Notes under the pieces: model-generated
Databases searched by the model: none
The model's input: the letters and a program-made list of their open reading frames with translations, nothing else
Told to the model about the DNA's origin: nothing
DNA from: Candidatus Woesebacteria bacterium RIFCSPLOWO2_01_FULL_39_23
GTDB lineage: Bacteria; Patescibacteriota; Microgenomatia; UBA8517
Length of the DNA: 58,744 nucleotides
NCBI GenBank assembly: GCA_001793095.1
Contig: MGHG01000011.1
Coordinates: 1 to 58,744, forward strand
Direction: 5' to 3'
Part shown: positions 10,825 to 53,032 of the stretch, piece after piece
Position numbering within the stretch: position 1 is the first letter of the stretch
Layout of the letters: every line of letters begins with the position of its first letter
Position numbers and translations under genes: made by a program

Positions 10825-10921
10825 TTTATTAAAAAATAAATTTCAAAAATAAAAATGCTAAATTTAGCATTTAGCTTCTTAGCATTCAGCTATTTTGTTT
10901 CTATTACTGCGAGTATATCAA

Positions 10922-15383: not shown

Positions 15384-15992
15384 ATGGAATTATCCCAATT
15401 AATCAATAAAATCGAACTAATTTATGGCTCTTGGGGGTACTTGCTAGTTTTTCTAAGCAGCTTTATCGAAACGACACCAATGGGCTGGGCAATACCGGGA
15501 GGTACAATAGTAGCTATTGGAGGGTTTTTTTCTTATGGAAATAACCCATCTTTTCTTGTCGGAACATTAATTTTCGGGGCGCTTGGAATGCTACTAACCT
15601 TCCTTCTTGCATACTACGCCGGATTAAAAACAGGTCTTTATTTTATAAAAAAATTCCACCAGGAAAAAAACGCAAAACGGGCGGAGCTTTTACTTAAGCA
15701 TCACGGCCCAACAATTCTTACTACTTCGCTCTTGGCAAATTTAACACGTTTTTGGGTTGCCTACTTGGCTGGTCACCACAGATATAATTTCTACAAATTT
15801 TTCTTATTCTCTACCATTGCGTCTTTTACTTGGAGCTCGCTACTTGTTTTTGTGGGCTATATTGCGGGAAGCGGCAGACATCAATTAGAAAGAGGTGTTG
15901 CCAATATCGGGATACTGACTTGGGGAATATTAATTTTAACTATTGGAATAATATACCGAAAGTTTAAAAAACTTGATGTTAATTATAAATAA
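15384..15992 (+). CDS. DedA family membrane protein
   Basis: FIET..MG..IPG, ..AYYAG, F.LFSTIASFTW....VFVGY. Confidence 0.88.
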   Translation: MELSQLINKIELIYGSWGYLLVFLSSFIETTPMGWAIPGGTIVAIGGFFSYGNNPSFLVGTLIFGALGMLLTFLLAYYAGLKTGLYFIKKFHQEKNAKRAELLLKHHGPTILTTSLLANLTRFWVAYLAGHHRYNFYKFFLFSTIASFTWSSLLVFVGYIAGSGRHQLERGVANIGILTWGILILTIGIIYRKFKKLDVNYK

Positions 15993-17022
15993 AAGAAATG
16001 CACTCGAGCACGCCGTCAAAGTTTTAAAACAAGGCGGTCTGGTAATCGCGCCTACCGAGACGCTATATGGGGCGCTGGTTGATGCAACAAATCCAATCGC
16101 TGTAAGAAAATTGACACGCTACAAGAATAGACCCCTTGGAAAACCTTATTCAATTGCGGTGACAAATCAAGACATGGCAAAAAAATACGTTAAGTCAAAC
16201 TCAACAGCTATAAGTCTATATAAAACTTTTCTCCCAGGACCGGTCACAATTATTTCACAAGGTAAACATAAAGTAGCTCCCGGAATCGAATCAGAAAACG
16301 GAACACTCGGAATAAGGATTCCCGACTATAAATTAATTATCGCTATTATAAATAAATTAGGTAAACCGGTTACTGCAACTTCAGCAAACGCAAGTTACCA
16401 GAAACGGCCTTATAAAATTTCAGACATTTTAGAAAATATATCCGAAAAACAAAAAGGGTTAATTGACCTAATTATCGACGTCGGAAAATTACCGAGAAGA
16501 GAACCCTCTACCGTTATTGACACGACGCTTGACGATCCGGTAATTCTGCGCCAAGGTGAAATTAAATTAAAAGATAAAAATGAAGTTGTATCCCGAAGCC
16601 CGGATGACACAAAAAACATTGCTAAAGAACTTTGGCAAAAATATGAAACTTTTTCCGGAAAACGCGCAATTATTTTTGCACTAGTGGGTGAAATGGGAAC
16701 TGGTAAAACCGTATTTACAAAAGGTCTGGCACGTGCAAGAGGAATAAAAGATAAAGTAATTTCTCCGACATATGACATAGAAGAAGAATACGATAACGGC
16801 TTACTTTTTCATATCGACGCGTGGCGATTTGAAAAATCATCCGAACTGAAATATTTTAACTTCGCTAAAAAAATTTCCGATAAATCTATCGTTGTCATAG
16901 AATGGGCCGACAGAGTGTCTGACGTAATTCAAAAATATAACGAGGAAGCAGTAATTATCTGGGTAAACATCTCCTACGGTAAAAATGAAACCGATCGGAT
17001 AATCAACTGGGGAGTTCTGTGA
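15976..17022 (+). CDS. Fused TsaC (Sua5/YrdC threonylcarbamoyl-AMP synthase) and TsaE (ADP-binding ATPase)
   Basis: N-half: PTETLYG, K.RP..KP, LPGPVT, GIRIP, TSAN, STV, LRQG. C-half: GEMGTGKT, SPTY, HIDAWR, IEWA. Single uninterrupted frame. Confidence 0.9.
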   Translation: MLIINKRNALEHAVKVLKQGGLVIAPTETLYGALVDATNPIAVRKLTRYKNRPLGKPYSIAVTNQDMAKKYVKSNSTAISLYKTFLPGPVTIISQGKHKVAPGIESENGTLGIRIPDYKLIIAIINKLGKPVTATSANASYQKRPYKISDILENISEKQKGLIDLIIDVGKLPRREPSTVIDTTLDDPVILRQGEIKLKDKNEVVSRSPDDTKNIAKELWQKYETFSGKRAIIFALVGEMGTGKTVFTKGLARARGIKDKVISPTYDIEEEYDNGLLFHIDAWRFEKSSELKYFNFAKKISDKSIVVIEWADRVSDVIQKYNEEAVIIWVNISYGKNETDRIINWGVL

Positions 17023-17050: not shown

Positions 17051-18166
17051 ATGAAAATACTCGCGATAGATACAAGTTGTGACGAAACTTCTGTCGCTGT
17101 CACCGGCGGACTAAATATCTTATCAAATGTTATTTGGTCTCAGGCCTCCCTGCATGCAAAATTCGGCGGAGTTTACCCCTCATTGGCAAAACGCGCCCAC
17201 GAAGAACGAATAGGCTGGGTGATTAATAAGGCAATGACTAATGCTAAATGTCAAATGAAAAATATCAACGCTATCGCTGTAACCATAGGACCAGGATTGG
17301 CAATCGCACTTGAGGTCGGCATCAAAAAAGCAAAAGAATTATCTGCTAAATACAATATACCCTTGATTACCGTTAATCACCTTGAAGGACATTTGTTGAG
17401 CCCGTTTGCTCAACCAAAAAACTCAAAAAAGCAAAACATCCAAAACTCTAAAAAAATTATAAACTCTACGTTATCAAAAGTAACTTTTCCATCATTTGGA
17501 TTGGTCGTATCGGGAGGAAACACGCAACTCATTCTTGTTAAAGAAATTGGAAAATATAAAATTCTTGCCGAGACGCAAGACGACGCATTAGGAGAAGCTT
17601 TGGATAAGGGAGCTAGAATGTTGGGTCTCGGCTATCCGGGCGGCGCAATACTTGAACACATGGCTGAAAAAGGAGGCGCGAAAGTTTATCAACTCCCCAT
17701 CCCCATGTCCGGCAAAGAGAAGGAGCACTATTTCAGCTACTCCGGTCTGAAAACTGCTATGTATCGTTTGATACAAGAACAAACGGCAAAGAACCCCATT
17801 AGAAAGCCGTCTGCTTCTAACGGGGCAGGCGAATTAACGAAGCAACAAATCTATGATCTCGCCGCATCTTATCAAAATGTTGCCTTCGAACACATTACAC
17901 GCGTTACGTCCTCTATAATCTCCCACTACCCATCTACTATCTCCTATCTGCTAGTGGGAGGTGGTGTTGCCGCAAACTCTGAACTTCGAAAACGTATCAG
18001 AAAAATGTGCAGAAAGTTTAATATTATTCCCCTATTCCCTTATTCAAAAAAACTCTGCACCGACAATGCAGCAATGATTGGTGTAGCTGCATATTTTAAA
18101 ACTCAGAGAAAAGAATTTAGTGAAGTTATAACAAAATTAGAACGCATACCGAGATACAAAATCTAA
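17051..18166 (+). CDS. tsaD: tRNA N6-adenosine threonylcarbamoyltransferase TsaD
   Basis: DTSCDETS, NHLEGH, VSGGNT, DDALGEALDK, FSYSGLKT, GGVAAN, TDNAAMI. Confidence 0.96.
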   Translation: MKILAIDTSCDETSVAVTGGLNILSNVIWSQASLHAKFGGVYPSLAKRAHEERIGWVINKAMTNAKCQMKNINAIAVTIGPGLAIALEVGIKKAKELSAKYNIPLITVNHLEGHLLSPFAQPKNSKKQNIQNSKKIINSTLSKVTFPSFGLVVSGGNTQLILVKEIGKYKILAETQDDALGEALDKGARMLGLGYPGGAILEHMAEKGGAKVYQLPIPMSGKEKEHYFSYSGLKTAMYRLIQEQTAKNPIRKPSASNGAGELTKQQIYDLAASYQNVAFEHITRVTSSIISHYPSTISYLLVGGGVAANSELRKRIRKMCRKFNIIPLFPYSKKLCTDNAAMIGVAAYFKTQRKEFSEVITKLERIPRYKI

Positions 18167-18680: not shown

Positions 18681-20945
18681 ATGGACAAGATATATAACCA
18701 CAAACTTTACGAGGAAAAGATTTACGAGTTGTGGGAAAAATCCGGTGCCTTTATAGCAAAACGCGACCCCAAGAAAAAGCCCTACACAATTGTACTACCA
18801 CCGCCCAACGCCAGCGGGAGAATGCACACGGGCAATGTCTTAATGATTGCAATAGAAGACTTACTGATCCGTCGGAAAAGAATGCAGGGGTTTGAAACAT
18901 TGTGGATTCCCGGTACTGACCATGCTGGTTTTGAGACTCAAATAACCTACGAGCGAGAATTAAAGAAAGCTGGAAAGTCCCGTTTTGATTTCGACAGAAA
19001 TACATTATATAAAAATATTGAAAACTTCGTTTTTAAAAATAAGAATTTGATTGAAAAGCAAATCCGAAACATGGGTGCCAGTGTAGATTGGACTCGGTAT
19101 AAATTTACCTTGGATCCGGATGTTGTTAATACCGTAACAGCAACCTTTCAAAAACTTCACAAAGATAAACTCATATACCGTGATAATTATTTAGTAAATT
19201 TTTGTCCAATTTGTGGCACAACCTTTGCCGATCTGGAAGTTAAACACAAAACTCGCACCGACCCATTATATTACATCAAATATCCCTTAAAAGATTCTCA
19301 TGATTTTATTGTTGTTGCGACCGTTAGACCGGAAACTATGTTTGGCGATGTGGCGATTTCTGTAAACCCGAAAGATAAACGTTATAACAAGCTTATCGGA
19401 AAAACAGCACTACTCCCGTTAACGAAACGGGAAATTCCCATAATTGAAGATTTTATGGTTGATATAAATTTCGGAACCGGAGCGGTAAAGATAACTCCCG
19501 GTCACGATCCCAACGATTTTCAAGTTGCAAAACGCCACAACCTCACAACCATCTCAGTTATCGATATTAACGGTAAAATGACACTCCCCAGCGACGCGGA
19601 TTATAAAAATATTGATGGGTTAACTGTTAACAAGGCTAGAGAAAAAACGGTACAGGAATTAAAAGAAAAAAACTTGATTGAAAATATTGATAATACTTAC
19701 GAACACTCGGTTGCTGTGTGTTATAAGGGTGGCCATGACATAGAACCGACGATATTGCCCAACTGGTTTGTTAAAGTTAAAACCTTAAAAGAACCAGCCC
19801 ATGAGGTAGTCAAAAAGGGTGATGTGAAGATTTATCCGAAATGGCAAGAAAGTAAATATCATAGATGGATGGAAAGTATGCTTGATTGGCCAATTTCAAG
19901 ACAGGTTGTTTGGGGTATAAGAATTCCGGCATGGTATTCCGTTATCGAGAATGAAAATTTGTTTATTACATTTTTAAATAAAGGCAAAACAGAAGCGGGT
20001 GATGTAAAAAGTCTACTTAAAAAGTATGCGTTTAAAGAAATTGAAAAGGGACTACAAACCCTTATCGCGCCACAAACTGCAAAATATGTCATTTCTAACA
20101 ATAAACCCGGAGACGATTTCTTACAGGAAACTGATACATTTGACACATGGTTTTCGTCAGGTCAATGGCCGCTCGTTACGCTGGGATATCCTAACTCTGA
20201 TGATTTTAATTATTTCTACCCGACCGATGTATTAGAAACTGCTTGGGAAATACTTAGGTTGTGGGTCTCAAGGATGATCATGTTCGGTATTTACTTAACA
20301 GGTAAACCTCCCTTCAAAGATGTTTATCTGCATGGAATTGTACGTGCTCTTGATGGCAAGAAAATGAGCAAAAGTTTAGGAAATGTTATTAATCCGGAAG
20401 AATACCAAGATGAATTTGGTACTGACGCCTTAAGAATGGGGTTGATAAGCGGCACAGCCAACGGTAAAGATTTTAATTTTCCTCGAGATAAAGTTTTAGC
20501 ATACCGTAATTTCGCAAACAAAATCTGGAACATCGCAAGATTTATTCTCATGATGTTTGAAAGCAAAGAAATTGAAATCCCTTTTTTCTCGGAAGTGATG
20601 TTAGATAAAATCACAAATTCTGATAGGGACATACTTAGCAAAATGGAAAAAACTATAACGAACGTTGATCTATCGTTGAATAAATATAGATTCGCCGAAG
20701 CGGCTGACTTTATTTATCACTTTATTTGGGATGATTTAGCGTCAAATTTTCTTGAGACGTCTAAACAAAGGTCTGATAAAAATATTTCACTTAGCGTGTT
20801 AAGACACGTTTATCTTACTTCCCTTAAATTATTGCATCCGTTCATGCCGTTTATTACAGAGGCAATTTGGGGAGAATTAAAAGACTTAAGAAAATACCCA
20901 GACGAACTTCTTATTACGGCAAAATGGCCAAATAAAAGTAGCTAG
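18681..20945 (+). CDS. valS: Valine--tRNA ligase (short form, no C-terminal coiled coil)
   Basis: PPPN..G..H.G, PGTDHAG, DW.ISRQ..WG, DTFDTWFSS, KMSKS. ATG 18681 (MDKIYN) preferred. Confidence 0.97.
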   Translation: MDKIYNHKLYEEKIYELWEKSGAFIAKRDPKKKPYTIVLPPPNASGRMHTGNVLMIAIEDLLIRRKRMQGFETLWIPGTDHAGFETQITYERELKKAGKSRFDFDRNTLYKNIENFVFKNKNLIEKQIRNMGASVDWTRYKFTLDPDVVNTVTATFQKLHKDKLIYRDNYLVNFCPICGTTFADLEVKHKTRTDPLYYIKYPLKDSHDFIVVATVRPETMFGDVAISVNPKDKRYNKLIGKTALLPLTKREIPIIEDFMVDINFGTGAVKITPGHDPNDFQVAKRHNLTTISVIDINGKMTLPSDADYKNIDGLTVNKAREKTVQELKEKNLIENIDNTYEHSVAVCYKGGHDIEPTILPNWFVKVKTLKEPAHEVVKKGDVKIYPKWQESKYHRWMESMLDWPISRQVVWGIRIPAWYSVIENENLFITFLNKGKTEAGDVKSLLKKYAFKEIEKGLQTLIAPQTAKYVISNNKPGDDFLQETDTFDTWFSSGQWPLVTLGYPNSDDFNYFYPTDVLETAWEILRLWVSRMIMFGIYLTGKPPFKDVYLHGIVRALDGKKMSKSLGNVINPEEYQDEFGTDALRMGLISGTANGKDFNFPRDKVLAYRNFANKIWNIARFILMMFESKEIEIPFFSEVMLDKITNSDRDILSKMEKTITNVDLSLNKYRFAEAADFIYHFIWDDLASNFLETSKQRSDKNISLSVLRHVYLTSLKLLHPFMPFITEAIWGELKDLRKYPDELLITAKWPNKSS

Positions 20946-20973
20946 TAGTATGTAGATAGTAGATAGGGAAATA

Positions 20974-34811: not shown

Positions 34812-34852
34812 GAATTTAACTTAGAACTAATAACTAATGACTAATGACAAAC

Positions 34853-52108: not shown

Positions 52109-52250
52109 TAACTCGATACTCATAACTCATAACTTATTACTCATTACAAATAATTGGTGCGTAGGGGTAAATCAGTCTCAAATGGTGATATAATGCAATT
52201 AACCTAAAGATTTAAGTTAATAAGTTTTTAGTTATAAGTTATTAGTTATT
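52109..52250. repeat. Oppositely oriented heptamer arrays bracketing a TATAAT promoter-like site
   Basis: taactcg atactca taactca taactta ttactca (52109-52150) versus taagtt/tagtt units (52212-52250). Confidence 0.6.
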
Positions 52251-52253
52251 ACA

Positions 52254-53006
52254 ATGCCTGATCTTTTTGTTTCTGGAGAAAAGAACGTTAATGCTCAAGT
52301 TATTGATGAGCAAATTAAACCGGAAGTGAGCGTTCATCCTCCGGTAAAGCATCCACATGTAAAGTTAGGTAATAGGCCTTCGAGTCTGAAAGAGGTTGAA
52401 ACCATGAAGAGTATTGATCATCAGGTCAAAATTCCTGAAGAATCCCAAGGTGGTCCGATTTCTGCTTTTAATTATTATCCGAAAAATGTCAATTTCATTA
52501 ATAAAGATCCCGAAGAAAAAGTTATTCTTTTTTTGAGAAGGCATCCTGTGACAAATCTTTCTTGGGTAGTATTAACTTTTGTTTTAATAATTGCGCCGTC
52601 TTTTTTGACAGTCATGCCTTTTTTTGACGCTCTTCCGCTGAAAGCGGGTACTTTACTGATACTGATCTGGTATCTTATGACCCTGACTTATGCCTTCCAA
52701 AAGTTTTTAGACTGGTTTTTTTCTGTAAATATAGTAACTGATGAACGTATTTTTGACGTTGATTTTTATAATCTGGTATATAGAAAAATGACAGATGCCA
52801 ATATTGACCAGATTCAAGACGTTACAGTTCAAATAGGTGGAGGAATTAGAACAATATTCAATTACGGTGATGTATTGATACAAACTGCCGCCGAGATACC
52901 GGAAATCGAATTTGAATCTGTTCCACAGCCAGACAAGGTTTCAAAAATATTAAGAGAGTTGCGAGTACAAGAAGAACAGGAAAAGCTAGAAGGAAGAGTG
53001 AGATGA
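52254..53006 (+). CDS. Bacterial PH-domain membrane protein (bPH_2-like)
   Basis: EEKV.LFLRRH, two TM helices, W......VTDERI.D, .IQDV......R..FNYG.V.IQTA. Confidence 0.82.
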   Translation: MPDLFVSGEKNVNAQVIDEQIKPEVSVHPPVKHPHVKLGNRPSSLKEVETMKSIDHQVKIPEESQGGPISAFNYYPKNVNFINKDPEEKVILFLRRHPVTNLSWVVLTFVLIIAPSFLTVMPFFDALPLKAGTLLILIWYLMTLTYAFQKFLDWFFSVNIVTDERIFDVDFYNLVYRKMTDANIDQIQDVTVQIGGGIRTIFNYGDVLIQTAAEIPEIEFESVPQPDKVSKILRELRVQEEQEKLEGRVR

Positions 53007-53032
53007 TAACTAATAACTAATAATATAATGCC

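What the first reader, a model, noticed from the sequence alone, without database searches (positions are those of the whole stretch)
17232..17952. Essential tsaD tolerates four in-frame insertions of intergenic-type repeats
Seen: caatgac taatgct aaatgtc aaatgaa (17232-17259, MTNAKCQM); aaaactc/caaaac units (about 17417-17456, KNSKKQNIQNSKK); a palindromic GCCGTCTGCTTCTAACGGGGCAGGC (17806-17830, KPSASNGAG); and ctctata atctccc actaccc atctact atctcct atctgct (17911-17952, SIISHYPSTISYL). ATCTACTATCT is shared with the intergenic array at 20941-20968 (reverse strand). Inferred: repeats are entering a housekeeping gene at surface loops and creating new peptide sequence, similar in effect to Rickettsia palindromic elements.
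Basis: partly seen in the sequence, partly recalled or inferred. Interest (0 to 1): 0.66.

Follow-up and report, generated by a model that had tools for sequence, protein, structure and literature searches.

The report
Seven-base repeats written into tsaD
An essential tRNA-modification gene of a groundwater candidate-phyla-radiation (CPR) bacterium has three stretches encoded by short 7-base tandem repeats, plus one tiny hairpin element inserted in frame. Related bacteria carry such repeats at the same three places but with different repeat units, so DNA repeat dynamics, rather than amino-acid selection, writes these parts of a conserved enzyme.

Summary
The gene at 17051-18166 is an intact tsaD.

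**Segments 1, 2 and 4: short tandem-repeat tracts**
- They have units of 7 bases; in segment 2 the units have decayed to 8-9 bases.
- In 13 of 20 CPR orthologs, significant period-7 tracts fall at one or more of the same three positions, with lineage-specific, sometimes perfect, units such as (CAATGCT)4 and (AAATGGA)4.
- Units within a gene resemble each other more than they resemble the same-index units in orthologs (p<1/5000).
- In orthologs the periodicity exceeds what the peptide alone explains.
- Segments 1 and 4 have the same length in orthologs and solved TsaD structures. They are rewritten, not inserted. Segment 2 adds about 15-20 residues to a disordered loop.

**Segment 3: a 32-nt hairpin**
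- The hairpin is CCCCATTAGAAAGC-loop-GCTTCTAACGGGG.
- It is single-copy in this genome and adds about 12 residues.
- It belongs to a family with the same arms in at least 120 loci across many phyla, often read in frame.

**Genome-wide**
- ORFs of this genome hold 39 strong heptamer and 18 octamer tracts, against 0-2 after codon shuffling. Hosts include gatB, rho and leuS.
- gatB orthologs behave like tsaD.

Slippage or out-of-register repair is inferred, not shown. I rate this a new variant of known heptanucleotide simple-sequence repeats.

The parts
17051..18166 (+). tsaD (tRNA N6-adenosine threonylcarbamoyltransferase), 371 aa, intact
   Evidence: It matches Pfam PF00814 at E 3e-77. Full-length matches to solved TsaD structures: 8iey at 2.7e-59, plus 6nak and 3zet. 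H110, H114 and D338 are invariant in alignment A1. The AF2 model has mean pLDDT 89.3.
17233..17267 (+). Segment 1: heptamer tract AATGACT AATGCTA AATGTCA AATGAAA AATATCA, encoding residues about 62-72 (MTNAKCQMKNI). It has the same length as in orthologs.
   Evidence: Period-7 score is 18/28, P=0.018. Orthologs carry (AAT-NNNN)5 in the same register with lineage-specific units, for example L004 (AATGCTC)x4 and L006 (AATGGAA)x4. There is no gap against 8iey. It forms the C-terminal end of helix 43-64 plus the loop to strand 74-79.
17414..17473 (+). Segment 2: a degenerate A-rich tract with units of 8-9 nt of the AAAACTC type, encoding PKNSKKQNIQNSKKIINSTLSK. It is a real insertion in a hypervariable loop.
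   Evidence: There is a 20-residue gap in solved TsaD structures. The loop is 39 aa, against a usual 24 in close relatives. Period 8 scores 20/28, P=0.001. Relatives encode this loop as (AAAT-NNN)5 ending AAATTCCC. Residues 126-138 have pLDDT below 50.
17792..17830 (+). Segment 3: in-frame hairpin element. Stem CCCCATTAGAAAGC (17794-17807), loop CGTCT, stem GCTTCTAACGGGG (17813-17825), tail CAGGC. It encodes NPIRKPSASNGAG.
   Evidence: It is absent from all 37 aligned relatives and from 19 orthologous loci. Contig depth spikes to 422 against 15, limited to 17793-17839, with unrelated flanks. At least 120 loci in many phyla carry the same arms. Patescibacteria copies share the GCAGGC tail. It is single-copy in this genome.
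17913..17954 (+). Segment 4: heptamer tract CTATAAT CTCCCAC TACCCAT CTACTAT CTCCTAT CTGCTAG, encoding residues about 288-301 (SIISHYPSTISYLL). It has the same length as in orthologs.
   Evidence: Period-7 score is 19/28, P=0.0045. The score exceeds synonymous recodings of its own peptide (P<0.0005). Orthologs carry other heptamers at the same place: L084 (TAACCAT), L082 (TGTAAAT), L083 (ATGCCAT). It forms the C-terminal end of helix 264-292 plus the loop to strand 299-303.
20937..20966 (.). Intergenic heptamer array (AGTAGAT)4.3 in the spacer between two convergent genes
   Evidence: TRF score 37. It shares the 11-mer ATCTACTATCT with segment 4 on the opposite strand.
10862..10895 (.). Intergenic array of the AAATGCT unit family, the same family as segment 1
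   Evidence: TRF period 7, 4.6 copies, score 36. It is one of five AAATGCT arrays in the genome.
15973..17022 (+). Upstream partner gene: a Sua5/TsaC-TsaE fusion
   Evidence: It matches Pfam PF01300 at 1.8e-44 (residues 16-195) and PF02367 at 2e-26 (residues 208-325).

Best explanation
**What is there (shown).** tsaD of this Woesebacteria-type CPR bacterium is a working-looking gene. About a tenth of its length is encoded by DNA whose pattern is set at the nucleotide level.

(i) Three tracts are short tandem repeats with a 7-base unit.
- Tracts of this kind sit at the same three positions of tsaD in related genera.
- Each lies just before a beta-strand, at a helix end or in a loop.
- Each lineage has its own unit, and in some lineages the copies are perfect.
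- In this genome two tracts (segments 1 and 4) occupy the normal length. The third (segment 2) has grown by about 15-20 codons and decayed to 8-9-base A-rich units.

(ii) A 32-nt hairpin with short flanks (36-39 nt in all) is inserted in frame in a variable loop. It belongs to a hairpin family spread over many phyla.

**How it most likely works (inferred).**
- These genomes are prone to gaining and losing 7-base units by replication slippage or out-of-register repair. They lack MutS and MutL.
- Between genes such tracts are free to vary. Inside genes only tracts that keep the frame and sit where the fold tolerates any sequence survive.
- Once a tract exists, misaligned copying between neighbouring units keeps homogenising it, either without changing length or through changes of 3 units (21 nt). 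The unit therefore drifts as a block (concerted evolution) and the encoded peptide changes much faster than the rest of the enzyme.
- The hairpin arrived by a separate, unknown insertion process of the REP/RPE kind. It is tolerated because 36 nt keeps the frame and the loop is disordered.
For: **Identity and integrity of the gene:**

**Tracts at orthologous sites**
- In 13 of 20 CPR orthologs, the period-7 peaks above the 95% threshold for the gene-wide maximum fall at reference residues about 66, 125-141 and 293.
- In 69 other TsaD genes only 4 exceed the threshold, as expected by chance, and 2 of those 4 are CPR genes.
- Examples are listed.

**Concerted evolution**
- Identity between units within a gene is 0.68, against 0.60 for same-index units between orthologs, in segment 1. 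In segment 4 the figures are 0.51 and 0.40. Both permutation tests give p<1/5000.

**DNA-level, not peptide-level**
- 17 of 19 arrays score above synonymous recodings of their own peptide (P<=0.03). Window segment 4 gives P<0.0005.

**Fast turnover**
- Amino-acid identity is 0.26, 0.11 and 0.18 in segments 1, 2 and 4, against 0.64 in the rest of the protein.

**Genome-wide**
- TRF finds 141 period-7 arrays, against 31-39 in Markov simulations.
- 33% of these arrays lie in the 12% of the genome called non-coding.
- In ORFs, 39 heptamer and 18 octamer windows score >=20/28, against 0-2 after codon shuffling. Other periods sit at the null level.
- Host genes include gatB, rho, mltG and a glycosyltransferase.

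**Second gene and relatives**
- gatB orthologs carry arrays at about residues 108, 204 and 293 with different units in different genera.
- In relatives' loci, period 7 accounts for 61 of 163 arrays, against 17 of 208 in loci from other phyla.

**Mismatch repair**
- MutS and MutL are absent from this genome and from 23 of its 25 relatives.

**Hairpin:**

**Published background**
- Heptanucleotide repeats are the commonest long simple-sequence repeats in many prokaryotes, and polymerase slippage has been proposed as the cause (Mrazek 2007, as summarised in PMC4679880 and PMC4692102).
Against: - No slippage event was observed. Contigs from 17 or more public runs carry an identical gene, and only assembled contigs, not reads, were available.
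- A single-unit slip in tsaD is a frameshift. How tracts homogenise without passing through dead intermediates is therefore unexplained. Length-neutral misaligned conversion is an assumption.
- Loss of MutS/MutL is not sufficient. G008 and G010 lack both genes yet have about 1 heptamer window per 100 kb, against 5-7 in G000, G026 and G033.
- The window's own segment 1 is no more periodic than its peptide dictates (P=0.26). In this genome that tract may be a fossil.
- Why 7 bases is unknown.
- The hairpin has no second copy in this genome. No transposase recurs near 120 copies elsewhere. Its means of insertion is open.
Confidence: 0.6

Rival explanations
1. Repeated invasion. Ready-made heptamer arrays, the same kind that lie between genes, are inserted into genes again and again by a copy-and-paste or recombination process. 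Each lineage's tract would then be an independent arrival.
For: - In gatB, arrays at about residue 204 appear as 6-7 extra residues in scattered genera of three families, while most orthologs have a short loop there.
- The same units occur between genes and inside genes of this genome: AAATGCT, AAAACTC and AAAAGTC.
- One genome uses (AATCTCA)4 at two gatB sites.
Against: - Segments 1 and 4 have the same length in all orthologs. The segment 1 register (AAT-NNNN, five units, ending at the conserved N-[LI]-D) is shared across genera, which fits descent from one old tract.
- Units within a genome are not more alike than units between genomes (permutation p=0.28).
- The unit-sharing probability is 0.011, against 0.010 in simulations.
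Confidence: 0.2
2. Functional nucleic-acid sites. The heptamer tracts would be arrays of binding sites for a DNA- or RNA-binding factor, as proposed for TAACTGA repeats upstream of start codons in Beggiatoaceae. Alternatively they would act on translation just before the beta-strands. Either way they would be kept at these positions by selection on the nucleic acid.
For: - Tracts persist at the same three sites over family-level divergence.
- The periodicity extends to synonymous positions.
- The commonest unit family in this genome, AACT[ACT]AT (18 arrays), is one base from TAACTGA (PMC4679880).
- Many arrays sit at gene boundaries.
Against: - Unit sequences differ freely between lineages at the same site, and between sites in one genome. 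A sequence-specific binder would not tolerate this.
- Many orthologs lack a tract at one or more sites.
- Heptamer density varies 6-fold among related genomes.
Confidence: 0.12
3. Protein-level selection plus AT-rich codon bias. Flexible K/N/S/Q-rich surface segments would be selected, and the nucleotide periodicity would be a by-product.
For: - The window's segment 1 is explained by its peptide (P=0.26).
- The genome is 38.5% GC.
- Segment 2 is lysine/asparagine-rich low complexity.
Against: - 17 of 19 ortholog arrays, and window segment 4, exceed synonymous recodings.
- Perfect (CAATGCT)4 and (AAATGGA)4 encode unrelated peptides at the same site.
- Codon-shuffled ORFs give 0-2 heptamer windows, against 39 observed.
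- Periods 6, 9 and 12 show no excess.
Confidence: 0.05
4. Chance. The four patterns would be what a reader finds in any 58-kb AT-rich window.
For: TRF scores in the window's tsaD are at the minimum (30). About 34 such period-7 rows are expected per genome under a Markov model. The shared 11-mer was picked after the fact.
Against: - The gene-wide P values are 0.001-0.018.
- The same three sites light up in independent orthologs and not in controls.
- The hairpin arms recur in at least 120 loci.
Confidence: 0.03

Closest known systems
Heptanucleotide long simple-sequence repeats of prokaryotes (Mrazek et al. 2007, as summarised in PMC4679880 and PMC4692102), including the cyanobacterial STRR heptamers (Calothrix, Nostoc)
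   Same: Both are tandem direct repeats with a 7-nt unit. Both are far more frequent than other unit lengths, are enriched between genes, have units that differ between lineages, and have slippage as the proposed cause.
   Different: - The published cases are described as mainly intergenic. Non-triplet units are reported as the ones avoided in coding sequence.
- Here dozens lie in frame inside housekeeping genes (tsaD, gatB, rho, leuS).
- They sit at the same positions in orthologs of different genera and evolve in concert.
- The host is a CPR bacterium. I found no paper describing this.
TAACTGA direct repeats of marine Beggiatoaceae, some Cyanobacteria and Bacteroidetes (MacGregor 2015, PMC4679880)
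   Same: The commonest unit family in this genome, AACT[ACT]AT, is a rotation of TAACTNA. The arrays have 2-8 copies near gene ends. Reverse-orientation copies are occasionally translated (LSVISYQ-type peptides).
   Different: - In that work, in-ORF copies lie at protein termini or in hypothetical proteins.
- One specific heptamer dominates there. Here there are many units, and they lie in the interior of essential enzymes.
- The tracts in tsaD itself are not of the TAACTNA type.
Rickettsia palindromic elements (RPE)
   Same: Segment 3 is a hairpin-forming repeat inserted in frame into a conserved gene. It adds residues to a loop and leaves the gene intact.
   Different: - RPEs are about 100-150 bp, multi-copy within a genome and confined to Rickettsia (from my own knowledge).
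- This element is 32-39 nt and single-copy in this genome.
- Its arms recur across many phyla.
REP/REPIN elements mobilised by RAYT transposases
   Same: Both are short imperfect palindromes (20-40 nt) with a conserved stem base and a variable tip. Both are dispersed in many copies in some genomes.
   Different: - No RAYT-like or any other recurrent gene lies within 2.5 kb of 120 copies.
- 37% of copies lie inside long open frames.
- There is one copy only in this genome.
Contingency loci (phase-variable simple-sequence repeats in Haemophilus, Neisseria)
   Same: Both are non-triplet tandem repeats inside coding sequence, where a one-unit slip shifts the frame.
   Different: - Contingency tracts are long, perfect and polymorphic, and sit in surface or restriction genes.
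- These tracts have 4-6 imperfect units in an essential housekeeping gene.
- No variant was seen in contigs of 17 or more runs.

Membership tests
TsaD/Kae1/Qri7 (PF00814) | The Pfam domain is matched over its curated cut-off, with a full-length match to solved TsaD structures | tested here: met
   PF00814 scores 260 bits against a cut-off of 24.8. The best match to solved TsaD structures is 8iey at 2.7e-59, covering residues 1-352.
TsaD/Kae1/Qri7 (PF00814) | The metal-binding H-x-x-x-H pair and the C-terminal aspartate are conserved | tested here: met
   H110, H114 and D338 are invariant in 38 sequences. Their role as metal ligands is from my own knowledge of TsaD structures.
TsaD/Kae1/Qri7 (PF00814) | Bacterial partners TsaC, TsaE and TsaB are present | tested here: inconclusive
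   A TsaC(Sua5)-TsaE fusion lies directly upstream. TsaB was not searched for.
Heptanucleotide simple-sequence repeats (LSSR/STRR type) | Tandem direct repeats with a 7-nt unit, in excess over expectation | tested here: met
   There are 141 period-7 arrays against 31-39 simulated. In ORFs there are 39 against 0-2. The tsaD tracts give P 0.0045-0.018, and segment 2 has period 8-9.
Heptanucleotide simple-sequence repeats (LSSR/STRR type) | Enrichment in non-coding DNA | tested here: met
   46 of 141 arrays lie in the 12.4% of the genome outside my crude ORF calls.
Heptanucleotide simple-sequence repeats (LSSR/STRR type) | Copy-number variation between strains (slippage in action) | not testable with these tools
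   Only Logan contigs were served, and the gene is identical in 17 or more runs. No same-genus genome is held.
Rickettsia palindromic elements | A hairpin-forming repeat inserted in frame in a conserved ORF | tested here: met
   Segment 3 is 36 nt, adds 12 codons and is absent from relatives. 46 of 123 family copies lie inside frames of at least 150 aa.
Rickettsia palindromic elements | Multi-copy family within the host genome, about 100-150 bp, Rickettsia lineage | tested here: not met
   There is one copy in this genome even when 2 mismatches per arm are allowed. The element is 32-39 nt long and the host is a CPR bacterium.
REP/REPIN-RAYT | Short palindromic repeat with conserved stem and variable tip | tested here: met
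   The arms CCCATTAGAA/TTCTAACGGG are fixed. Loops are 6-16 nt and are often themselves self-complementary.
REP/REPIN-RAYT | Association with a RAYT (Y1 transposase) gene | tested here: inconclusive
   No recurrent transposase-like ORF lies within 2.5 kb of 120 copies. Whole genomes of the hosts were not searched.
Phase-variable contingency locus | A long perfect tract with on/off length polymorphism in a dispensable, usually surface, gene | tested here: not met
   The tracts are imperfect with 4-6 units. The gene is a core t6A enzyme. No length variant appears in contigs.

The most novel reading that the evidence does not exclude
The heptamer tracts would not be passive slippage debris. They would be the footprint of a dedicated, still unknown DNA-level process in some CPR lineages: a templated or protein-guided writer, or a conversion mechanism with a 7-base step. 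This process would keep rewriting defined, structurally tolerant segments of essential genes. It would act as a built-in generator of new peptide sequence, and would explain why heptamer-rich and heptamer-poor genomes coexist within one family regardless of MutS/MutL status.
Probability: 0.12. Interest if true: 0.88.

Novelty: new variant of a known kind. Interest (0 to 1): 0.64.

Why it matters
Tandem repeats whose unit is not a multiple of three are expected to be purged from essential coding sequence, because every one-unit slip is a frameshift. Here they persist at fixed positions of universally conserved enzymes across genera, and the unit changes as a block.

- **Protein evolution.** This gives a concrete case in which nucleotide-level repeat dynamics, not amino-acid selection, determines the sequence of parts of a folded, essential protein.
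- **CPR biology.** It offers a simple source for some of the lineage-specific insertions and hypervariable segments that are typical of CPR proteins.
- **Practical use.** Such tracts should be masked in marker-gene alignments and trees of CPR bacteria. They may also serve as fine-scale strain markers.
- **A testable question.** What sets the 7-base step? Heptamer-rich and heptamer-poor genomes within one family can now be compared to find out.

Tried and rejected
1. **Genome-specific favourite unit.** Striking cases suggested this: the same unit at two gatB sites in L246, and the same unit in segments 1 and 2 of L001 and L082. It was rejected statistically. Within-genome unit distance is 2.64 against 2.77 between genomes (permutation p=0.28). 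The unit-sharing probability is 0.011 against 0.010 in simulations.
2. **Mismatch-repair loss as the cause.** MutS and MutL are missing from G000 and 23 of its 25 relatives. However, G008 and G010 also lack them and are heptamer-poor. The two MutS/L-positive genomes show no heptamer excess. The result is consistent with the idea but not discriminating.
3. **The ATCTACT link between segment 4 and the intergenic array at 20937-20966.** It is real as an 11-mer, but only 3 arrays of that unit exist genome-wide. It is not a family.
4. **Segment 3 as a dispersed repeat of this genome.** blastn-short, a degenerate pattern and a fuzzy search with 2 mismatches per arm found no second copy.
5. **Segment 3 as a known RNA.** Rfam gave no match at E<=1.
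6. **A transposase next to the hairpins.** All-against-all clustering of 1256 ORFs around 120 copies gave no recurrent mobile-element gene.
7. **Slippage variants in public runs.** Only contigs were available. There was no difference inside the tracts.
8. **Single-linkage clustering of heptamer units.** It collapsed into one A/T-rich cluster and was uninformative.
9. **The primary paper of Mrazek 2007.** It could not be fetched under the id I remembered. It is cited only through two papers that summarise it.
Full report
**The gene.** The ORF at 17051-18166 (+) encodes a 371-aa TsaD.
- It matches Pfam PF00814 at E 3e-77.
- It aligns end to end with solved bacterial TsaD structures: 8iey at 2.7e-59, plus 6nak and 3zet.
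- H110, H114 and D338 are invariant in an alignment with 37 relatives.
- The gene directly upstream is a Sua5/TsaC-TsaE fusion.
- Names given by sources to the closest homologues (Microgenomates, Woesebacteria) and earlier notes of this scan place the organism in the Woesebacteria-type CPR.
- The assembly is 1.13 Mb, 38.5% GC and 99.45% complete.
- No same-genus genome is held. The closest ortholog is 67% identical.

**Are the four segments insertions?**
- Against 8iey, segment 1 (MTNAKCQM) and segment 4 (SIISHYPSTISYL) align without gaps or nearly so.
- Segment 2 faces a 20-residue gap and segment 3 a 15-residue gap.
- Among 37 relatives, segments 1 and 4 have the same length as nearly everywhere else.
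- Segment 2 lies in a loop whose length ranges from 0 to about 50 extra residues.
- Segment 3 has about 12 residues that no relative has.
- In an AlphaFold2 model (mean pLDDT 89.3), segment 2 (126-138, pLDDT<50) and segment 3 (block 251-260, pLDDT 53) are disordered loops.
- Segments 1 and 4 are the C-terminal ends of helices 43-64 and 264-292, plus the loops into strands 74-79 and 299-303.
- So two segments are insertions and two are not.

**Is the periodicity real?** I scored self-match at a given period over 28 positions and compared the gene-wide maximum with codon shuffles.
- In the window's tsaD, segment 4 reaches 19/28 at period 7 (P=0.0045).
- Segment 1 reaches 18/28 at period 7 (P=0.018).
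- Segment 2 reaches 20/28 at period 8 (P=0.001) and 18/28 at period 9.
- These values alone would be modest. The decisive evidence came from orthologous DNA.

**Orthologs.** I fetched tsaD loci from family relatives.
- At the position of segment 1 they carry five units in one register, AAT-NNNN, with lineage-specific fillings. Examples are L004 AATGCTC x4 (perfect), L006 AATGGAA x4 (perfect), L001 AATTAAC-type, L085 AATTAAA-type and the window AATGNNN.
- At segment 2 they carry (AAAT-NNN)5 ending AAATTCCC, with a period-7 self-match up to 0.83. One lineage has (CCATTAG)3 instead.
- At segment 4 they carry TAACCAT, TGTAAAT, ATGCCAT or TGAAAAT units.
- In 13 of 20 CPR orthologs, the peaks above the 95% threshold for the gene-wide maximum fall at one or more of the same three places.
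- In 69 TsaD genes taken as controls, only 4 exceed the threshold, and 2 of those 4 are CPR genes.

**Concerted evolution.**
- Units within a gene are more alike than same-index units of different genes: 0.68 against 0.60 in segment 1 and 0.51 against 0.40 in segment 4. No permutation out of 5000 reached the observed value.
- In 17 of 19 arrays the periodicity exceeds what synonymous recodings of the same peptide give (P<=0.03). This includes window segment 4 (P<0.0005). Window segment 1 does not exceed it (P=0.26), so that tract may be decaying.
- The three segments have amino-acid identities of 0.26, 0.11 and 0.18 among orthologs, against 0.64 for the rest of the protein.

**Genome-wide.**
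- TRF finds 141 period-7 arrays, against 31-39 in order-3 Markov simulations.
- A third of them lie in the 12% of the genome outside my crude ORF calls.
- Inside ORFs, 39 heptamer and 18 octamer windows reach 20/28, against 0-2 and 0-1 after codon shuffling. Periods 4-6 and 9-12 are at the null level.
- Hosts include gatB, rho, mltG/yceG, a GT1 glycosyltransferase and a FemAB-type protein (Pfam). By inspection of the translations they also include leuS, a P-type ATPase and a UvrD-like helicase.
- Segment 1's unit family, AAATGCT, forms four intergenic arrays (one at window 10862-10895) and the NAKCQILNAKC tract of mltG.
- Segment 2's unit, AAAACTC, forms tracts in copA, rho and the helicase.
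- gatB orthologs repeat the tsaD picture. They carry arrays at about residues 108, 204 and 293 in different genera with different, often perfect, units: (TCAATGG)4, (AATCTCA)4, (AAGTTCA)4 and (CAAATTA)4.
- In 213 kb of relatives' loci, period 7 accounts for 61 of 163 arrays. In 245 kb from other phyla it accounts for 17 of 208.

**Mechanism.**
- The published proposal for the general excess of heptanucleotide repeats in prokaryotes is polymerase slippage (Mrazek 2007, as summarised in PMC4679880 and PMC4692102).
- MutS and MutL are absent here and in 23 of 25 relatives, which fits that proposal.
- However, heptamer density is patchy. It is 5-7 per 100 kb in G000, G026 and G033, about 1 in G008 and G010 (also without MutS/L), and shows no excess in the two MutS/L-positive genomes. 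Repair loss is therefore at most permissive.
- I could not observe slippage. Public runs were available only as contigs, and the gene is identical in them.
- A favoured unit per genome is not supported.
- Length-neutral misaligned conversion, or changes of three units, is my inference for how tracts homogenise in an essential gene.

**The hairpin (segment 3).**
- Laying contigs on the gene showed a depth spike (422 against 15) confined to 17793-17839. Many contigs matched only there, with unrelated flanks and with indels in 17807-17813.
About a dozen would be expected for uniform composition by my own estimate.
- The stem base is fixed. The tip varies in length and is often self-complementary. 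Outer flanks extend the palindrome.
- Patescibacteria copies share the tail GCAGGC with the window's copy.
- 46 of 123 copies lie inside open frames of at least 150 aa, mostly read as P-[IV]-R...S-N-G. One Saccharibacteria copy gives the same PIRKPSASNGAG peptide.
- This genome has no second copy. Rfam has no match. No transposase recurs nearby.
- The window's copy alone folds only modestly better than shuffles (z=-1.94).
- Earlier notes of this scan describe similar roughly 36-nt hairpins in other CPR genomes. I did not show that they are the same family.

**Literature and verdict.**
- Searches for heptanucleotide repeats together with CPR, Patescibacteria or Microgenomates found nothing on this behaviour.
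- The closest descriptions are intergenic heptamer repeats, and occasional translated copies at protein termini or in hypothetical proteins (PMC4679880).
- What is really there is a family-wide, DNA-driven rewriting of three tolerant segments of tsaD, plus one cross-phylum hairpin insertion.

Noticed in passing
window 15973-17022: The gene upstream of tsaD is a single ORF that fuses Sua5/TsaC (PF01300) with TsaE (PF02367). Three of the t6A functions are therefore encoded by two adjacent genes.
   Followed up: no
window 52109-52144 and 52213-52249: Two heptamer arrays, (TAACTCA)5 and (TAAGTTA)5, lie in the 148-bp spacer between two genes. They are roughly reverse complements of each other, so the spacer could form a long imperfect hairpin made of repeat units.
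   Followed up: no
genome contig C8:58397-58450 and other sites (C3:14163, C5:8382, C18:13995, window 34817-34845, 53006-53023): The commonest heptamer family of the genome is AACT[ACT]AT (TAACTNA), with 18 arrays that are almost all intergenic. It is one base from the TAACTGA repeats described in Beggiatoaceae, Cyanobacteria and Bacteroidetes. Some arrays contain TAACTGA units themselves (PMC4679880).
   Followed up: partly
loci L116, L145, L160, L195 (Planctomycetota): In planctomycete copies the hairpin sits directly before the GFTLIE prepilin-type N-terminal motif of DUF1559-like proteins (…SNGAGFTLIE). The outer arm GTTTACCCC reads G-F-T-P, resembling that motif.
   Followed up: no
relatives G000-G034: MutS (PF00488) and MutL (PF01119) are absent from 24 of 26 genomes of this family and order, including three single-contig genomes. 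They are present together in only two (G005, G015).
   Followed up: partly
genome contig C12:34998-39203: The UvrD/PcrA-like helicase ORF that carries the NSKLKTQNSKL heptamer tract is 1401 aa long. By eye its translation seems to contain an intein-like insert, ending …VVHN followed by S. Not tested.
   Followed up: no
window 17356-17393: There is a period-10 self-match peak (18/28, P=0.0115) inside tsaD at residues about 102-114, the conserved PLITVNHLEGH region. It is unexplained and may be chance.
   Followed up: no
The genome search: Within the same GTDB family, tsaD orthologs fall into two identity classes relative to the window (53-67% and about 39-46%). This suggests either a deep split or a replacement of tsaD in part of the family.
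   Followed up: no
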